UHGV virus genome: UHGV-1978634
Reading direction: 5' to 3' (one strand)
Length of the DNA stretch: 39,633 nucleotides
Source: a virus
Position numbers and translations under genes: made by a program. Below the pieces are notes generated by a model. The model was not told the origin of the DNA. It searched no databases and saw nothing but the letters and a program-made list of their open reading frames with translations. Positions 26,239 to 35,500 of the stretch are shown in pieces (positions within the stretch are counted from its first letter, which is position 1; each line of letters opens with the position of its first letter).

Positions 26239-26439
26239 TCAGGCAGCCTTGTTATTCTGTTTACTAAGTTCTCTGGCAATCATTGCCGTCGTTCGTATTG
26301 CCCATTTATCGACATATTTCCCATCCTCCATTACAGGAAACATTTCTTCAGGCTTAACCATGCATTCCGATTGCAGCTTGCATCCATTGCATCGCTTGAA
26401 TTGTCCACACCATTGATTCTTATCAATAGTCGTAGTCAT
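26239..26439 (-). CDS. Small Cys-rich protein (66 aa)
   Basis: WCGQFKRCNGCKLQSEC motif. Confidence 0.5.
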   Translation of the reverse strand: MTTTIDKNQWCGQFKRCNGCKLQSECMVKPEEMFPVMEDGKYVDKWAIRTTAMIARELSKQNNKAA

Positions 26440-26517
26440 AAGGATAGTCCTGGTATTGTTCCATCACATCCTGCGGATGCTCTTCGAACTCTTCAAATTC
26501 TTCTTCCATATATCACC

Positions 26518-26817
26518 TCAAATAAGTGGTTTGCTTCCTAATTTCATTTTCTGGCGACCAACACAAGTCACCCCCATTTCACTGCGTGGCTTGCGGTAGT
26601 AAATACGGTTCTGTTTACGCTCGACTTCTTCTGCCTTTTTGCAGCGAAGGCTTCCGAGTGATGTTGCTTTGTCTGCTCTGACGCAACCAGAGAGCTTTAG
26701 CGCAATTTTTCGCGCCAGTCGCTGCTCTTGCATTGCCTGTTCACGTTGAGCCTGTCTGCGTGCTCTGCGGCGATTTCTGGCGTTATCGTCAGCCAGATAT
26801 GTAATGACTACTGTCAT
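26518..26817 (-). CDS. N: Antiterminator N-like protein
   Basis: ORF 26518..26910; ATG at 26817 with GGAGG RBS; arginine-rich motif NARNRRRARRQAQREQ near the N-terminus. Confidence 0.7.
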   Translation of the reverse strand: MTVVITYLADDNARNRRRARRQAQREQAMQEQRLARKIALKLSGCVRADKATSLGSLRCKKAEEVERKQNRIYYRKPRSEMGVTCVGRQKMKLGSKPLI

Positions 26818-27125
26818 GTTGACCTCCGATGAAACAACTTTGGAATTGATAGTGATTGCAAAGTGGTTTCTGGCCCCTCGAACTGAGGGGCAGAAAGAGC
26901 ATCTCGCCACCTAATAGGTCGATGCTCGGATCGAGAGATTTAATTAACCTCGGTTTTGAAGTTATGCATTCACATAAATCCTCCTGTTGCATGTGCAGCA
27001 TTGGCTGTGTTTGGCGGCTGCATTTCGCCTATGGAATTGACTTTGGCGGTGACGCGCCGGGTGCTTATCTTCCGGTTGCCGTCGTGCAGCTGCTCACGTC
27101 ACCCCAAAGCCAACTACTCTTTGGT

Positions 27126-27167
27126 TCCCGCATTTCGGCGGGACAATCCCATCAATGTTAAAGAGCC
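27126..27167 (-). promoter_or_regulatory. nutL (boxA-like ggctctttaa plus boxB hairpin)
   Basis: boxB tcccgc-cgaaat-gcggga is identical to the nutR boxB at 28822-28839; sits just downstream of OL. Confidence 0.65.
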
Positions 27168-27214
27168 TGCCAATCTGTTCCGTTTGGCTTCCAGCGTCCT
27201 GCTGATGGCTAAAG

Positions 27215-27299
27215 AATACTGTAGGTATTTTATTGTGTAAATACCCAAGGTATTTATTTTTGGTGAAATAATGATAAGCAAATGAATACAAAGGATATT
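27215..27299. promoter_or_regulatory. OL operator cluster / pL region
   Basis: Three 15-bp palindromes AATAC-N5-GTATT (27215-27229, 27240-27254, 27285-27299, last one imperfect). Confidence 0.65.
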
Positions 27300-27385
27300 T
27301 ATTTTTTCGGTGTCTGCTTGTTCAGTGTTTTTTATGCGGGATATGTGAAGTTGATCCCGATAGCTATTGCTGCCGGGATTATGGG

Positions 27386-27775
27386 TTAGTCAGCGAAGGT
27401 TAAGACGAGAATTACCTTAATGATGTCTGCTACAACAGACACGGCCATAGATAAACCAAAGACGATCCAAGCCATAGAGATGTCTTCACTACCATCGTAT
27501 AGCGTTCCGTAATCACTGGTGTAAGGCGTAAATGTCGCGCCTTGATACAACAGGTATAAGCTTGAACCATAGAGGATAAATGCAGATATCCCTTGTATTG
27601 CTATGACCACTAGAATCATGAAACGAGCAGATCTATGCGCCCAAGCCTGGCTTATTTTTTCTGATAGAGATTTCGCAATAAAAGCATGCGCTAAGCCGTA
27701 AATTGTTGAGATTGCCAACATCCCCAAAAAGCTTGCTATAGCGGTTCCAACCATAATCGCCCCTTGCGTGATCAA
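27386..27775 (-). CDS. Polytopic membrane protein co-transcribed with cI (candidate exclusion / abortive-infection factor)
   Basis: 129 aa, 3-4 predicted TM helices; start overlaps the cI stop by 4 nt. Confidence 0.7.
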   Translation of the reverse strand: MITQGAIMVGTAIASFLGMLAISTIYGLAHAFIAKSLSEKISQAWAHRSARFMILVVIAIQGISAFILYGSSLYLLYQGATFTPYTSDYGTLYDGSEDISMAWIVFGLSMAVSVVADIIKVILVLTFAD

Positions 27776-28488
27776 ACCAGCCTTAGTTTTGTCTCAATTG
27801 CAACGCCTATAATCTTGCAGTTTCCATTGATTGGCACGAGAGGCCATGCAGGATTAAGTCCCTTGAGGTATTTATTTCCGCCGTCGATTATCAGCTTCTT
27901 GAATGTTGCTTCGTTAGAGTCAGAATGTTTTGCTATGACCAAGCTGCCGTTGATCGCCTCCCTTCCGGTATCGAAAAGAACGAATGTTCCCTCTGGAATG
28001 CTTAACCCAACCGGTGCCGTCATTGAATCACCTTCCACTTTAAGCCAGAACGCATTACCTTGAATATGCGCGTCAGACTCAAGCCAAACATCTATGTCTT
28101 TAATGGTGTATGGTTCGCATGCTTCACACCACGAGCCAGCCTGGATACTGCTTAACACCGGATACCTCTTTCCTGCTCTGTATTCCCCTGCATACCTTAC
28201 GTTGGCATCGCTCTTAAGGCTTTCTGCCTGTTCTGCAACCTTGGCAGCAATTGACTGGCTAAAATCAGCAATTGAGACTTGCAACAATCGTGCAAAACCA
28301 GATGCAACCTCAACGTTTAGCGCGTTTCTGCCATTAAGATAATGCCCTACCGCTCCTTGGGTGATACCCAGTTCATCAGCGATTGAGTATTGGGTTATTC
28401 CCAATTCTTTCTTTTTTGACTCATACAAAGCCTTAAGCCGCTTAGCGTCTTCGAGCTGTTCTGTCGTCAGTGATTTTTTATTTTCCAT
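27772..28488 (-). CDS. cI: CI-type repressor (HTH plus LexA-like S24 peptidase domain)
   Basis: 238 aa; ..LGITQYSIADELGITQGAVGHYLNG.. HTH; C-terminal ..VEGDSM.. autocleavage domain. Confidence 0.9.
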   Translation of the reverse strand: MENKKSLTTEQLEDAKRLKALYESKKKELGITQYSIADELGITQGAVGHYLNGRNALNVEVASGFARLLQVSIADFSQSIAAKVAEQAESLKSDANVRYAGEYRAGKRYPVLSSIQAGSWCEACEPYTIKDIDVWLESDAHIQGNAFWLKVEGDSMTAPVGLSIPEGTFVLFDTGREAINGSLVIAKHSDSNEATFKKLIIDGGNKYLKGLNPAWPLVPINGNCKIIGVAIETKLRLV

Positions 28489-28523
28489 AGCTTAATTCTA
28501 ATAGCTAAGGTACTTAAACTAAA

Positions 28524-28563
28524 AATACCCTGAGTATTGATTGCTTTGAATACCTGTAGTATT
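28524..28563. promoter_or_regulatory. OR operators with divergent PRM/PR
   Basis: aataccctgagtatt (28524-28538) and aatacctgtagtatt (28549-28563), same consensus as OL; candidate PR -35 ttgatt and -10 tattct. Confidence 0.7.
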
Positions 28564-28594
28564 CTTTGTTCATGGTTAATAACGGAGAGTGCAT

Positions 28595-28789
28595 ATGATT
28601 CGAATGACACTTGCCGATTACGCCAAAATCCATGGACAGGCTAAAGCAGCCAGTGACTTTGGTGTAATCCAGTGCGCTATCAGCAAGGCCATTCTGGCAG
28701 GCCGTAACATCATGGTTACGGTAAAGCCTGATGGCAGTGTGATTGGAGAGGAAGTTCGTCCTTTCCCAAGCAACAAGAAAAACAAATAG
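28595..28789 (+). CDS. cro: Cro repressor
   Basis: [64 protein letters not shown] resembles lambda Cro; GGAG RBS 7 nt upstream. Confidence 0.85.
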
Positions 28790-28795
28790 TAACAC

Positions 28796-28839
28796 CGCTC
28801 TTTAACAGTCATGGTCCTCATTCCCGCCGAAATGCGGGA
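28796..28839 (+). promoter_or_regulatory. nutR (boxA cgctcttta plus boxB hairpin)
   Basis: Canonical boxA immediately after the cro stop; boxB tcccgc-cgaaat-gcggga. Confidence 0.65.
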
Positions 28840-28897
28840 ATACAACGCGCATAAGTTGATGCGCATAACTTCTTATTTGTTAAGGAAATACTTACAT

Positions 28898-29191
28898 ATG
28901 GTTCGTGCAAACAAACGCAACGAGGCTCTACGAATCGAGAGTGCGTTGCTTAACAAAATCGCAATGCTTGGAACTGAGAAGACAGCGGAAGCTGTGGGAG
29001 TTGATAAGTCGCAGATCAGCAGGTGGAAGAGGGACTGGATTCCAAAGTTCTCAATGCTGCTTGCTGTTCTTGAATGGGGCGTCGTTGACGACGATATGGC
29101 TCGATTGGCACGACAAGTTGCTTCGATTCTCACCAATAAAAAACGCCCGGCGGCAACCGAGCGTTCTGAACAAATCCAGATGGAATTCTGA
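28898..29191 (+). CDS. cII: CII transcriptional activator
   Basis: ORF 28811..29191; from ATG 28898 the product [51 protein letters not shown].. is near-identical to lambda CII as I recall it. Confidence 0.9.
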
Positions 29192-29223
29192 GGTCATTAC
29201 TGGATCTATCAACAGGAGTCATT

Positions 29224-29370
29224 ATGACAAAACAACTCAGTCCTTACCAGGACAAAATTCACAAACACATACTACGTGATCGCTTCCTGTCCAGCTTCAA
29301 GCAGCCTGGTCGATTCCGGGCTGAGTTGGAAAAAGTGAAGCTGATGCAGAAGGAGAAAGGTCATGAGTAA
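29224..29370 (+). CDS. Hypothetical small protein (48 aa)
   Basis: CAGGAG RBS; stop overlaps the O-like start. Confidence 0.4.
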
Positions 29371-35093: not shown

Positions 35094-35168
35094 TTTTTAT
35101 TTGGGTCAGTCGTATAAAGGTCATTACGGAAGGCTGTTAACCTTCTTATCGTGGTTCGAGTCCACGCT
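35094..35168 (+). tRNA. tRNA-Asn (anticodon GTT)
   Basis: Manual cloverleaf: acceptor gggtcag/ctgtccc (one mismatch), anticodon stem gaagg/ccttc, loop ctGTTaa, T-arm cgtgg-ttcgagt-ccacg, 3-prime gcca. Confidence 0.7.
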
Positions 35169-35173
35169 GTCCC

Positions 35174-35249
35174 GCCAAATATGCTGGTTTAGCTCCAATG
35201 GTAGAGCAGTCGCCTTGTAAGCGAATGGGTAGCGGTTCAAGTCCGTTAA
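35174..35249 (+). tRNA. tRNA-Thr (anticodon TGT)
   Basis: Manual cloverleaf: acceptor gctggtt/aaccagc, D-arm gctc-caatggta-gagc, anticodon loop ctTGTaa, T-arm agcgg-ttcaagt-ccgtt, 3-prime acca. Confidence 0.8.
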
Positions 35250-35500
35250 CCAGCACCATAACTGAGCCGTAGCCACTGGCTATCCTGAATTCATCAGTGA
35301 TAGTTACGCTGCGGCCTTCTACACATGACCTTCGTGAAAGCGGGTGGCAAGAGGTTGCGCTAACAACCTCCTGCCGTTTTGCCCGTGCATATCGGTCACG
35401 AACAAATCTGATTGCTAAACACAGTAGCCTGGATTTGTTCTATCAGTAATCGACCTTATTCCTAATTAAATAGAGCAAATCCCCTTATTGGGGGTAAGAC

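What the first reader, a model, noticed from the sequence alone, without database searches (positions are those of the whole stretch)
27126..28839. Immunity region with AATAC-N5-GTATT operators and matching nutL/nutR boxB hairpins
Three OL and two OR 15-bp palindromes share one consensus, giving a concrete operator specificity for this CI/Cro pair. nutL and nutR carry the identical boxB tcccgc-cgaaat-gcggga. A separate strong hairpin in the N leader (26873-26891, gcccctc-gaact-gaggggc on the plus strand) may be a processing or translational control element.
Basis: seen in the sequence. Interest (0 to 1): 0.4.

Follow-up and report, generated by a model that had tools for sequence, protein, structure and literature searches.

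The report
HK620-type phage immunity region, already annotated
This is the repressor and antitermination control region of an HK620-type lambdoid phage, whose operators and nut sites were annotated in 2001; the one new item is that the leader hairpin sits in a conserved, unannotated 203-base RNA cassette upstream of gene N.

Summary
AATAC-N5-GTATT (up to 1 mismatch) occurs five times in 39.6 kb, all beside cI. The boxB TCCCGCCGAAATGCGGGA occurs exactly twice, as nutL and nutR. The hairpin at 26873-26891 folds strongly.

The region is about 98.7% identical to phage HK620. Its GenBank record already marks OL1, OL2, OR1-OR3, pL, pR, nutL and nutR on the same bases.

Two corrections. It fits the consensus better, is invariant in 23 haplotypes, and has a same-spacing counterpart in a Serratia phage.

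Hafnia, Serratia and Erwinia phages with cI N-terminal domains 68-84% identical keep the same half-sites, so the refutation test fails.

The hairpin is not the lambda-type RNase III stem. That homologue is a longer stem at 27040-27111. The hairpin lies in an extra 203-nt cassette (26833-27035) absent from HK620, lambda and phage 21. HK140, CUS-3, 163 of 5,426 E. coli genomes and about 70 viral contigs carry it. The cassette keeps two adjacent hairpins and an invariant SD-AUG-UGA. Its function is untested; I favour post-transcriptional tuning of N.

The parts
26518..26817 (-). N antiterminator gene (99 aa). It combines an HK620-type arginine-rich N-terminus with a phage-21-type C-terminal part.
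   Evidence: ORF list. 86% identical to HK620 N, 70% to phage 21 N, 98% to CUS-3 N. The Pfam N_peptide match is below cut-off: 20.6 bits against 27.9.
26833..27035 (-). Accessory 203-nt N-leader cassette, absent from HK620, lambda and phage 21.
   Evidence: The BLAST alignment to HK620 breaks at 26832/27036 (alignment A2). Present in HK140 and CUS-3, in 163 of 5,426 E. coli genomes, and in 72 loci matched by model R1.
26867..26896 (-). RNA: UUUCUG-CCCCUC-AGUUC-GAGGGG-C-CAGAAA; 12 bp with one bulged C.
   Evidence: dG -18.4 kcal/mol, z = -4.1. It is the MFE fold in 22 of 23 distinct variants; in the other only the inner stem forms, and four type-3 variants keep just the 7-bp inner stem. Loop sequences differ and type 2 gains a G-C pair.
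26897..26927 (-). Hairpin A, directly abutting hairpin B (GAGCAUC ... GAUGCUC).
   Evidence: Compensatory change GAACAUC/GAUGUUC in L066 and L098.
26938..26947 (-). AU-rich single-stranded tract (UUAAUUAAAU) 5' of hairpin A.
   Evidence: Invariant in 18 aligned variants. Replaced by another AU-rich run in L098.
26970..26985 (-). Strong Shine-Dalgarno plus start codon followed at once by a stop codon (AGGAGGAUUUAUGUGA).
   Evidence: Invariant block in alignment A1. Kept in copies found with an independent anchor, including L098 where it reads AGGAGGGTTTATGTGA.
26994..27022 (-). Cassette stem UGCAGC ... GCUGCA.
   Evidence: MFE fold. Both arms are invariant across variants, so there is no covariation information.
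27040..27111 (-). Long imperfect stem-loop, homologous to the structured element of the lambda N leader and the probable RNase III target.
   Evidence: dG -33.2 kcal/mol, z = -3.1. Shares base sequences GGCUUUGGGGUG ... CACC(G/A)CCAAAG with lambda, phage 21 and HK620.
27126..27167 (-). nutL: boxA GCUCUUUAA (27159-27167) and boxB UCCCGC-CGAAAU-GCGGGA (27126-27143).
   Evidence: Identical to the nutL annotated in HK620.
27206..27241 (-). pL: -35 TTTACA (27241-27236), 17-nt spacer, -10 TATTCT (27218-27213). Transcript start inferred at 27206.
   Evidence: Promoter scan. HK620 pL maps here. The start region ATCAGCAGGACGC is identical to lambda.
27214..27230 (.). OL1, GAATACTGTAGGTATTT.
27239..27255 (.). 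OL2, AAATACCCAAGGTATTT.
   Evidence: Polymorphisms fall only in the central 5 bp.
27284..27300 (.). Candidate third OL site, GAATACAAAGGATATTT. The HK620 record instead places OL3 at 27261-27277 and tIMM at 27274-27304.
   Evidence: 1 mismatch. 0 of 17 positions vary in 23 haplotypes, against 2 of 17 in the annotated OL3. Serratia phage OS31 has a site at the same 45-bp spacing from OL2. No minus-strand terminator-like site here.
27386..27775 (-). hkaS-like small membrane-protein gene between cI and OL, in the position of lambda rexB.
   Evidence: ORF list. HK620 hkaS maps to 27386-27754. No Pfam family above cut-off.
27772..28488 (-). cI repressor gene (238 aa).
   Evidence: HTH_3 + Peptidase_S24. 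N-terminal domain 100% identical to mEpX2, HK140 and HF4s, and 98.9% to HK620.
28495..28500 (-). Inferred PRM -10 (TAGAAT), ending 6 nt before the cI ATG. This would make cI mRNA leaderless, as in lambda.
   Evidence: Read from the sequence. Inference only; not annotated in HK620.
28499..28515 (.). OR3, TAATAGCTAAGGTACTT.
   Evidence: HK620 annotation. 2 mismatches. Relatives have AATAG...GTATT at the same position.
28523..28539 (.). OR2, AAATACCCTGAGTATTG.
28548..28564 (.). OR1, GAATACCTGTAGTATTC.
28537..28572 (+). pR (TTGATT, 17-nt spacer, TATTCT).
   Evidence: HK620 pR maps here. Hexamers read from the sequence. The match is 8 of 12, below the scan threshold.
28595..28789 (+). cro gene (64 aa).
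   Evidence: Pfam Cro PF09048, 91 bits. 61% identical to lambda Cro.
28796..28841 (+). nutR: boxA CGCUCUUUAA (28796-28805) and boxB (28822-28839; the stem extends to 8 bp).
28898..29191 (+). cII gene (97 aa).
   Evidence: Pfam Phage_CII, 163 bits.

Best explanation
The region is the immunity and early-control module of an HK620-type lambdoid phage, carried here in a P22/Sf6-like genome.

Inferred by homology with lambda:
- CI and Cro dimers bind 17-bp operators with core AATAC-N5-GTATT, three at OR and two or three at OL. These overlap pR, PRM and pL, giving the usual bistable switch.
- Transcripts from pL and pR carry nutL and nutR (boxA + boxB). The arginine-rich N-terminus of N reads the boxB CGAAAU loop and makes RNA polymerase termination-resistant.

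Shown by sequence comparison: the N leader is about 389 nt. It runs nutL, then a long lambda-homologous stem (the likely RNase III target that modulates N autoregulation in lambda), then an accessory 203-nt structured cassette, then the N ribosome-binding site.

They lie downstream of an invariant SD-AUG-UGA and an AU-rich tract.

My working guess (inferred, untested) is that the cassette tunes N expression after transcription. Cleavage in the AU-rich tract, or ribosome loading at the start-stop, could uncouple the N coding region from the nutL-bound complex. Hairpins A and B would then protect the new 5' end.
For: Identity and annotation:
- 98-99% identical to HK620, HK140, mEpX2 and HF4s.
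- The HK620 features OL1, OL2, OR1-3, pL, pR, nutL and nutR fall on identical bases.
- Pfam confirms cI, Cro and CII.

Operator constraint:
- In 23 OL and 7 OR haplotypes, variable positions are 1 of 60 in half-sites against 6 of 30 in the central spacers (Fisher p = 0.005).
- Three phages with cI N-terminal domains 68-84% identical, and cI recognition helix TQGAVGHYLNGR in two of them (SQGAV... in the Hafnia phage), have 3 + 3 sites of the same consensus. Their Cro helices are identical (Hafnia, Serratia) or similar (Erwinia).

boxB:
- The same loop with altered stems occurs in Erwinia phage 49, which shares the N arginine-rich motif.
- Phage 21 has a different motif and a different loop, CUAACC.

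Leader:
- The long stem is shared with lambda, phage 21 and HK620.
- For lambda, N autoregulation through nutL and a highly structured leader is described in PMC5725501.

Cassette:
- 72 copies, 25 distinct.
- 22 of 23 distinct variants fold into both hairpins; in L066 only hairpin B forms in the MFE.
- 90% of cells are paired, against 43-56% when partners are slid.
- Loops vary (AGUUC, AAUUC, AUGUC, UUAU, UAUAU, ACAUA, UAAUU) while stems are kept.
- It also sits in leaders of P22-type N genes with P22-type boxB, so it is a portable leader unit.
Against: - No experiment supports any cassette function.
- Formal covariation is thin. Only 2 of 19 fixed-column pairs show double changes, and the variants represent about 5 lineages.
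- Predicted accessibility of the N ribosome-binding site is unchanged by the cassette.
- HK620, lambda and phage 21 work without it, so it is dispensable.
- The third OL site conflicts with the HK620 annotation, and no binding data exist.
- N matches Pfam N_peptide only below cut-off.
Confidence: 0.8

Rival explanations
1. The site at 27285-27299 is not an operator. It would be part of the terminator of the cI-hkaS transcript (tIMM), with the true OL3 at 27261-27277, as in the HK620 GenBank record.
For: The HK620 annotation places OL3 at 27261-27277 and tIMM at 27274-27304. The candidate lies 45 bp from OL2, further than the 20-25 bp spacing in lambda and in Erwinia phage 49.
Against: - The annotated OL3 (TGGTGAAATAATGATAA) does not match the half-sites and is polymorphic at 2 of 17 positions. 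The candidate has 1 mismatch and 0 of 17 variable positions.
- No terminator-like hairpin with a U-run is found on the minus strand there.
- Serratia phage OS31 has a site with the same 45-bp offset.
Confidence: 0.3
2. The hairpin at 26867-26896 is itself an RNase III processing site controlling N, as in lambda.
For: It lies in the N leader about 50 nt upstream of the N start and is a stable helix conserved in relatives. It stacks directly on hairpin A, which could give a longer helical surface.
Against: - The positional and sequence homologue of the lambda leader stem is the 72-nt structure at 27040-27111.
- Hairpin B is only 12-13 bp and almost pure G-C near the loop. From general knowledge of RNase III, substrates are usually about two helical turns, and G-C pairs at certain positions act as antideterminants.
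Confidence: 0.15
3. The cassette has no function of its own. It would be a recombination relic or 'boundary sequence' between mosaic modules, and the hairpins persist by common descent.
For: CUS-3 annotates the whole interval as 'bsq5; boundary sequence'. Several well-studied phages lack it. Only about 5 sequence lineages exist.
Against: - At about 72% identity between types, both hairpins survive through paired changes. These include an inserted G-C pair, GAGCAUC/GAUGCUC to GAACAUC/GAUGUUC, and an A.A mismatch to an A-U pair in L077.
- Loops drift freely.
- The 16-18 nt SD-AUG-UGA block is invariant.
- Frame-breaking indels rule out coding constraint.
Confidence: 0.2
4. Hairpins A and B, with the boxA-like UGCUCUUU, form a second nut-like site or an HK022 put-like antiterminator RNA.
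For: UGCUCUUU matches the first 8 nt of the rrn boxA and precedes a hairpin. By recollection, put RNAs are two adjacent stem-loops.
Against: - The boxA-like run is the 3' arm of hairpin A and covaries with its partner (GCUC to GUUC with GAGC to GAAC), so pairing is the constraint.
- Loops are not conserved, unlike boxB.
- The model finds a single copy in the window and none downstream of pR.
- The phage already has N, nutL and nutR.
- No Rfam family matched.
Confidence: 0.03
5. The interval encodes a protein on the plus strand, as PGAP calls a 129-aa hypothetical protein in UTI89.
For: PGAP annotates WP_011478232.1 across the leader in UTI89. The window has plus-strand ORFs at 26856-27161 and 26956-27240.
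Against: The two cassette types differ by 2-, 2- and 1-2-nt indels that break any common frame. The ORF would also run through nutL and pL.
Confidence: 0.02

Closest known systems
Coliphage HK620 immunity region (GenBank AF335538; Clark et al. 2001, J Mol Biol 311:657, cited in PMC2629481)
   Same: cI, cro, hkaS, OL1, OL2, OR1-3, pL, pR, nutL and nutR are 98.8% identical. All annotated operator and nut sequences are base-for-base the same except one base in the annotated OL3.
   Different: The window has 203 extra nt in the N leader (26833-27035). Its N C-terminus is phage-21-like rather than HK620-like. cII and downstream genes also differ.
Phage lambda OR/OL switch and N-nut antitermination, with the N-leader structured stem
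   Same: Same gene order: N, nutL, pL/OL, (rex position), cI, OR, cro, nutR, cII. Three operators at 24-25 bp spacing at OR. cI is 43% and Cro 61% identical. The pL start sequence is identical and the long leader stem is homologous.
   Different: Half-sites are AATAC/GTATT rather than lambda's TATCAC type. boxB has a 6-nt CGAAAU loop rather than lambda's GAAAA-type pentaloop. The leader is 389 nt against about 223 nt, because of the cassette.
Phage 21 N/nut (imm21 region of phage DE3)
   Same: N residues 33-99 are nearly identical. The pL-to-boxA leader is nearly identical. boxB is a 6-7-bp stem with a hexaloop. The long stem is followed by the N SD.
   Different: The arginine-rich motif (GTAKSRYKARR against DDNARNRRRARR) and the boxB loop (CUAACC against CGAAAU) are swapped together. 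Phage 21 has no cassette.
N leaders of phages HK140 and CUS-3 and of E. coli prophages (UTI89, S88, 55989, ATCC 11775)
   Same: They carry the same 203-nt cassette between the long stem and N, at 98.8% (HK140) and 73-93% identity.
   Different: The cassette is unannotated there, labelled 'boundary sequence', or overlaid by doubtful hypothetical ORFs. CUS-3, UTI89 and 55989 have a different cI and operators.

Membership tests
Lambda-type CI repressor (LexA-like autocleaving HTH repressor) | N-terminal HTH DNA-binding domain plus C-terminal S24 peptidase (RecA-stimulated self-cleavage) domain. | tested here: met
   PF01381 HTH_3 (39 bits) and PF00717 Peptidase_S24 (85 bits), both above cut-off.
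HK620 immunity group | The same repressor DNA-binding domain and the same operator sequences as HK620. | tested here: met
   cI residues 1-93 are 98.9% identical to HK620 and 100% to mEpX2 and HK140. OL1, OL2, OR1, OR2 and OR3 are identical.
HK620 immunity group | Functional homoimmunity: an HK620 lysogen excludes this phage. | not testable with these tools
   Needs plating on lysogens.
Lambda-type Cro | Membership of the Cro family fold, encoded divergently from cI across OR. | tested here: met
   PF09048, 91.3 bits. cro lies at 28595-28789 (+), opposite cI.
Lambdoid tripartite operators | Three partially palindromic sites of one consensus at about 2.3-turn spacing, overlapping pR/PRM and pL. 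| tested here: met
   OR centres are 24-25 bp apart. OL1-OL2 are 25 bp apart. The sites overlap the -10 and -35 of pL and pR. The third OL site is ambiguous.
N-utilisation (nut) sites | boxA (GCUCUUUAA-like) followed by a boxB hairpin, once downstream of pL and once downstream of cro. | tested here: met
   Identical to the annotated HK620 nutL and nutR.
N-utilisation (nut) sites | A cognate N protein whose arginine-rich motif co-varies with the boxB loop. | tested here: met
   Erwinia phage 49 shares the motif and the CGAAAU loop. Phage 21 differs in both. Pfam N_peptide alone is below cut-off (20.6 against 27.9).
N-utilisation (nut) sites | N-dependent read-through of terminators. | not testable with these tools
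   Needs reporter assays.
Lambda N-leader RNase III site | A long imperfect helix between nutL and the N SD, homologous to the lambda leader stem. | tested here: not met
The feature is met instead by 27040-27111. Cleavage itself is not testable here.
Intrinsic (Rho-independent) terminator | A GC-rich hairpin followed at once by a U-run on the transcribed strand. | tested here: not met
   No terminator-like call at 26867-26896 on either strand. The flanks are CCAGAAACC (minus-strand RNA) and AGAAAGAG (plus strand).
Any curated Rfam RNA family | A covariance-model match. | tested here: not met
   No match at E up to 5 across 26400-29300.
HK022 put-type antiterminator RNA | Two-hairpin RNA present downstream of both early promoters, in a phage lacking N. 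| tested here: not met
   There is one copy only in the window. N and nut sites are present. No direct sequence comparison with put was made.

The most novel reading that the evidence does not exclude
The 203-nt insert in the N leader (26833-27035) would be a previously undescribed, portable cis-regulatory RNA cassette of lambdoid phages. It would set the level or timing of N synthesis independently of the lambda-type RNase III stem. It has been exchanged among leaders of N genes with different boxB specificities (HK620-type and P22-type).
Probability: 0.3. Interest if true: 0.45.

Novelty: already known. Interest (0 to 1): 0.22.

Why it matters
The operators, promoters and nut sites have been public knowledge since the HK620 genome paper, so that part of the finding adds nothing new.

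Three small points go beyond the annotation.
- The half-site consensus AATAC/GTATT holds across a repressor family reaching Hafnia, Serratia and Erwinia phages. That makes it a usable specificity rule for this immunity type.
- The published OL3 and tIMM assignments for HK620 are probably misplaced.
- About 3% of complete E. coli genomes carry an unannotated, structurally conserved cassette in the leader of the master early regulator N. If it tunes N, it affects the lysis-lysogeny timing of many prophages, including those in UPEC and K1 strains such as UTI89, S88 and CUS-3.

Tried and rejected
- Rfam scan of 26400-29300 at E up to 5: no match.
- Simple deletion or transposition origin of the cassette. 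A 9-bp repeat (TCAATTCCA) occurs near both ends, but the HK620 junction (26832/27036) is not at the repeats and type 2 lacks the full repeat. Rejected.
- boxA reading of UGCUCUUU. It is the 3' arm of hairpin A and covaries with its partner. Rejected.
- Long-range pairing between the nutL spacer and the region after hairpin B. It appears in the window MFE but cannot form in type 2 sequences. Rejected.
- Conserved small ORFs. The 9-codon ORF after the UGA, the 70-aa minus-strand ORF and the plus-strand ORFs are not kept between types.
- Promoter inside the cassette: none found by the scan.
- Occlusion of the N ribosome-binding site by the cassette. Unpaired probabilities are the same for long and short leaders.
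- Genome-contig scan with AGGAGGNTTTATGTGAAT: none of the 37 hits came from a lambdoid-phage host; the two plausible ones checked (Citrobacter L127, Pseudomonas L111) lacked the cassette.
- Independent-anchor scan of viral contigs: added only one new variant, L098.
- Literature searches for the boxB, hairpin or start-stop sequences and for HK620 operators found no relevant paper. Wilson et al. 1997 and 2002 are not held.
- The MAFFT and covariance-model alignments could not put type 1 and type 2 hairpin B in one register, so the formal covariation counts understate the compensatory changes.
Full report
**What is there.** The interval 26.5-29.2 kb holds a lambdoid early-control region.
- N, 26518-26817 (-).
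- A long leader.
- pL and OL.
- A small membrane-protein gene, 27386-27775 (-).
- cI, 27772-28488 (-).
- OR.
- cro, 28595-28789 (+).
- nutR.
- cII, 28898-29191 (+).

Pfam confirms cI (HTH_3 + Peptidase_S24), Cro (PF09048), CII (PF05269) and, further left, Ral. N matches N_peptide only below cut-off. The rest of the window is a P22/Sf6/HF4s-like mosaic that no single record covers by more than 56%.

**Check of the observation.** AATACNNNNNGTATT with up to 1 mismatch matches five times in 39.6 kb, against 1.24 expected. All five sites are beside cI. The 18-nt boxB occurs exactly twice, once on each transcribed strand, against 0 expected. Both copies fold as 6-8-bp stems with a 6-nt loop. The hairpin at 26873-26891 is real. 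It extends to 12 bp with one bulge (26867-26896), with dG -18.4 kcal/mol and z = -4.1.

**Already annotated.** The region is 98-99% identical to phages HK620, HK630, HK140, mEpX2, HF4s and several Stx phages. The HK620 GenBank record annotates OL1-3, OR1-3, pL, pR, nutL, nutR and tIMM. I mapped those features onto the window base by base.
- OL1 maps to 27214-27230 and OL2 to 27239-27255.
- OR3 maps to 28499-28515, OR2 to 28523-28539 and OR1 to 28548-28564.
- pL maps to 27206-27241 and pR to 28537-28572.
- nutL maps to 27126-27167 and nutR to 28796-28841.
- All of these sequences are identical to HK620.

At 2 core mismatches OR3 is not significant by sequence alone: 25 hits against 17.8 expected. 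Its position and homology support it.

**The third OL site.** That is 27261-27277, TGGTGAAATAATGATAA.
- It has one mismatch, while the annotated OL3 has no recognisable half-sites.
- In 23 haplotypes anchored independently of the operators, none of its 17 positions varies. Two of 17 vary in the annotated OL3.
- Serratia phage OS31 has a site at the same 45-bp offset from its OL2.

No terminator-like hairpin with a U-run is detected there on the cI strand.

**Are the operators constrained, and do relatives agree?** Across the six sites, 1 of 60 half-site positions varies, against 6 of 30 central-spacer positions (Fisher p = 0.005). Among other intergenic positions, 26 of 211 vary (p = 0.013).

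I ran it on the nearest diverged repressors.
- Serratia OS31, Hafnia Pocitis76 and Erwinia vB_EhrS_49 have cI N-terminal domains 84%, 79% and 68% identical.
- Serratia OS31 and Erwinia 49 keep the recognition helix TQGAVGHYLNGR; the Hafnia phage has SQGAVGHYLNGR.
- Each carries three OR and three OL sites of the same AATAC-N5-GTATT consensus at 21-29 bp spacing, apart from the 45-bp OS31 gap noted above.
- Their OR3 sites share the weakened AATAG left half seen here.
- The Cro recognition helix (QCAISKAI) is likewise conserved.
- Phage Fostie has Q-S in place of Q-G in the helix and shows AGTAC/GTACT-like half-sites.

The consensus is thus a property of a repressor family, and the interpretation survives.

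**nut sites and N.** boxA (GCUCUUUAA) precedes each boxB. The window N has the HK620-type N-terminus (…DDNARNRRRARRQAQ…) joined to a phage-21-type C-terminal two thirds.
- Phage 21 (imm21 of DE3) has an almost identical leader up to boxA. Its arginine-rich motif is different and its boxB loop is CUAACC.
- Erwinia phage 49 has the same motif as the window. It keeps the CGAAAU loop in both nut sites while its stems differ.

This is the expected co-variation of peptide and RNA loop.

**The hairpin is not the lambda-type RNase III stem.** I aligned the leaders of the window, HK620, lambda and phage 21.
- All share a long imperfect stem whose base is GGCUUUGGGGUG ... CACC(G/A)CCAAAG. In the window it spans 27040-27111, with dG -33.2 kcal/mol and z = -3.1. 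In lambda it is the dominant predicted structure of the N leader.
- Lambda N represses its own translation through nutL across a highly structured leader. RNase III modulates this (PMC5725501, citing Wilson et al. 1997 and 2002).
- In HK620, lambda and phage 21 the N Shine-Dalgarno follows that stem within about 10-15 nt.
- The window has 203 extra nucleotides there (26833-27035).

**The cassette.** It is present in HK140 (98.8%) and CUS-3 (81%, labelled only 'boundary sequence'). It is also in 163 of 5,426 complete E. coli genomes, in identity classes of at least 99%, about 93% and about 73%. These include UTI89, S88, 55989 and ATCC 11775. In every locus I inspected it sits directly upstream of N.

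Scans of viral contigs with two independent anchors, followed by a covariance model, gave 72 copies with 25 distinct sequences. Conserved parts, 5' to 3' on the RNA:
- a stem UGCAGC/GCUGCA;
- an invariant AGGAGG-N4-AUG-UGA (26970-26985);
- an AU-rich tract;
- hairpin A (26897-27927 region; GAGCAUC/GAUGCUC at 26897-26927);
- hairpin B (26867-26896), abutting hairpin A with no nucleotide between.

Folded alone, 22 of 23 distinct variants give both hairpins. In L066 the MFE lacks hairpin A, and four type-3 variants keep only the 7-bp inner stem of hairpin B. The paired changes are as follows.
- Type 2 hairpin B gains a G-C pair and swaps U-A for U.G.
- The outer stem changes from UUUCUG/CAGAAA to UUCCAU/A.AGGAA. 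L077 restores a perfect 13-bp helix.
- Hairpin A changes from GAGCAUC/GAUGCUC to GAACAUC/GAUGUUC in L066 and L098.
- Loops differ freely: AGUUC, AAUUC, AUGUC, UUAU, UAUAU, ACAUA and UAAUU.

Formal counts on the model alignment give 90.3% of cells paired, against 43-56% for slid partners. Only 2 of 19 pairs show double changes, partly because the two types are not in one register. The variants amount to about five lineages, so I call this moderate evidence for selection on the helices.

Frame-breaking indels between types exclude a conserved ORF on either strand. The cassette also occurs in leaders with a P22-type boxB (GCGCUGACAAAGCGC) and a P22-type N. It is therefore independent of N specificity.

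**What the hairpin does.** This is not shown. I excluded or weakened several readings.
- Intrinsic terminator: there is no U-run.
- Second nut site: the boxA-like UGCUCUUU is a stem arm that covaries.
- put-like RNA: there is a single copy, and N is present.
- Internal promoter: none found.
- Occlusion of the N ribosome-binding site: unpaired probabilities are equal with and without the cassette.
- Canonical RNase III site: it is too short and too GC-rich, and the lambda homologue lies elsewhere.

My best guess, at about 0.3-0.35, is post-transcriptional tuning of N. The AU-rich tract would be a plausible endonuclease entry point, the start-stop a ribosome loading or blocking point, and hairpins A and B a protective 5' structure. 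The main rival is that the cassette is a tolerated mosaic-joint relic (about 0.2).

**Verdict.** The finding is accurate in substance but ordinary, because its core was annotated in 2001. Two corrections apply: OR3 exists, and the third OL is disputed. One reinterpretation applies: the hairpin belongs to an accessory, conserved, unannotated leader cassette and not to the lambda-type processing stem.

Noticed in passing
L086:3925-3998 (Hafnia phage Pocitis76, OL512804); compare window 27040-27111: A genuine tRNA-Gly(CCC) sits inside the N leader of this related phage (ARAGORN; Rfam tRNA 47.2 bits). It occupies exactly the place where lambda, phage 21, HK620 and the window have the long stem. 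The flanking arms GGCTTTGGGGTG ... CACC(A/G)CCAAAG are shared by all of them. The leader stem may be related to, or interchangeable with, a tRNA processing unit.
   Followed up: partly
L098:5960-6115 (IMG/VR UViG 3300011710_000024): The same leader position holds a sequence with a tRNA-like 3' end (GGTTCGACTCCAGTCACCACACCACCA) and a matching 5' arm, separated by about 130 nt. ARAGORN and Rfam do not call it. It may be an interrupted or degenerate tRNA, and the cassette follows it.
   Followed up: partly
window 26970-26985 (-): A strong Shine-Dalgarno (AGGAGG) followed by AUG and then UGA forms a one-codon 'start-stop'. It is the longest invariant block of the cassette in all 72 copies. Nothing is known about such an element in a phage N leader.
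   Followed up: partly
window 26518-26817 (-): N is a mosaic. Residues 1-32 (the arginine-rich motif) match HK620. Residues 33-99 match phage 21 N, with the RKPRSEMGVTCVGRQK...KPLI tail that HK620 N lacks.
   Followed up: yes
window 28486-28500 (-): A TAGAAT hexamer ends 6 nt before the cI ATG and overlaps OR3. This suggests a leaderless cI mRNA from PRM, as in lambda. PRM is not annotated in HK620.
   Followed up: no
window 27261-27304: The HK620 GenBank features 'OL3' and 'tIMM' map to sequences with, respectively, no operator half-sites and no terminator-like structure. They are probably misannotated.
   Followed up: partly
L009:1830-2260 (E. coli 55989 prophage): About 250 extra bp lie between the long leader stem and cI, and the usual nutL sequence is replaced just upstream of CAAAGAGTAG. 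This prophage may have lost or moved nutL.
   Followed up: no
window 35103-35258 (+): Two adjacent tRNA genes, tRNA-Asn(GTT) and tRNA-Thr(TGT), lie in the late or right part of the phage genome.
   Followed up: no
L089:2420-2490 (Escherichia phage Fostie): A cI relative with Q-S in place of Q-G in the recognition helix has operator-like sites with AGTAC/GTACT half-sites. This may be a natural specificity variant of the family.
   Followed up: no
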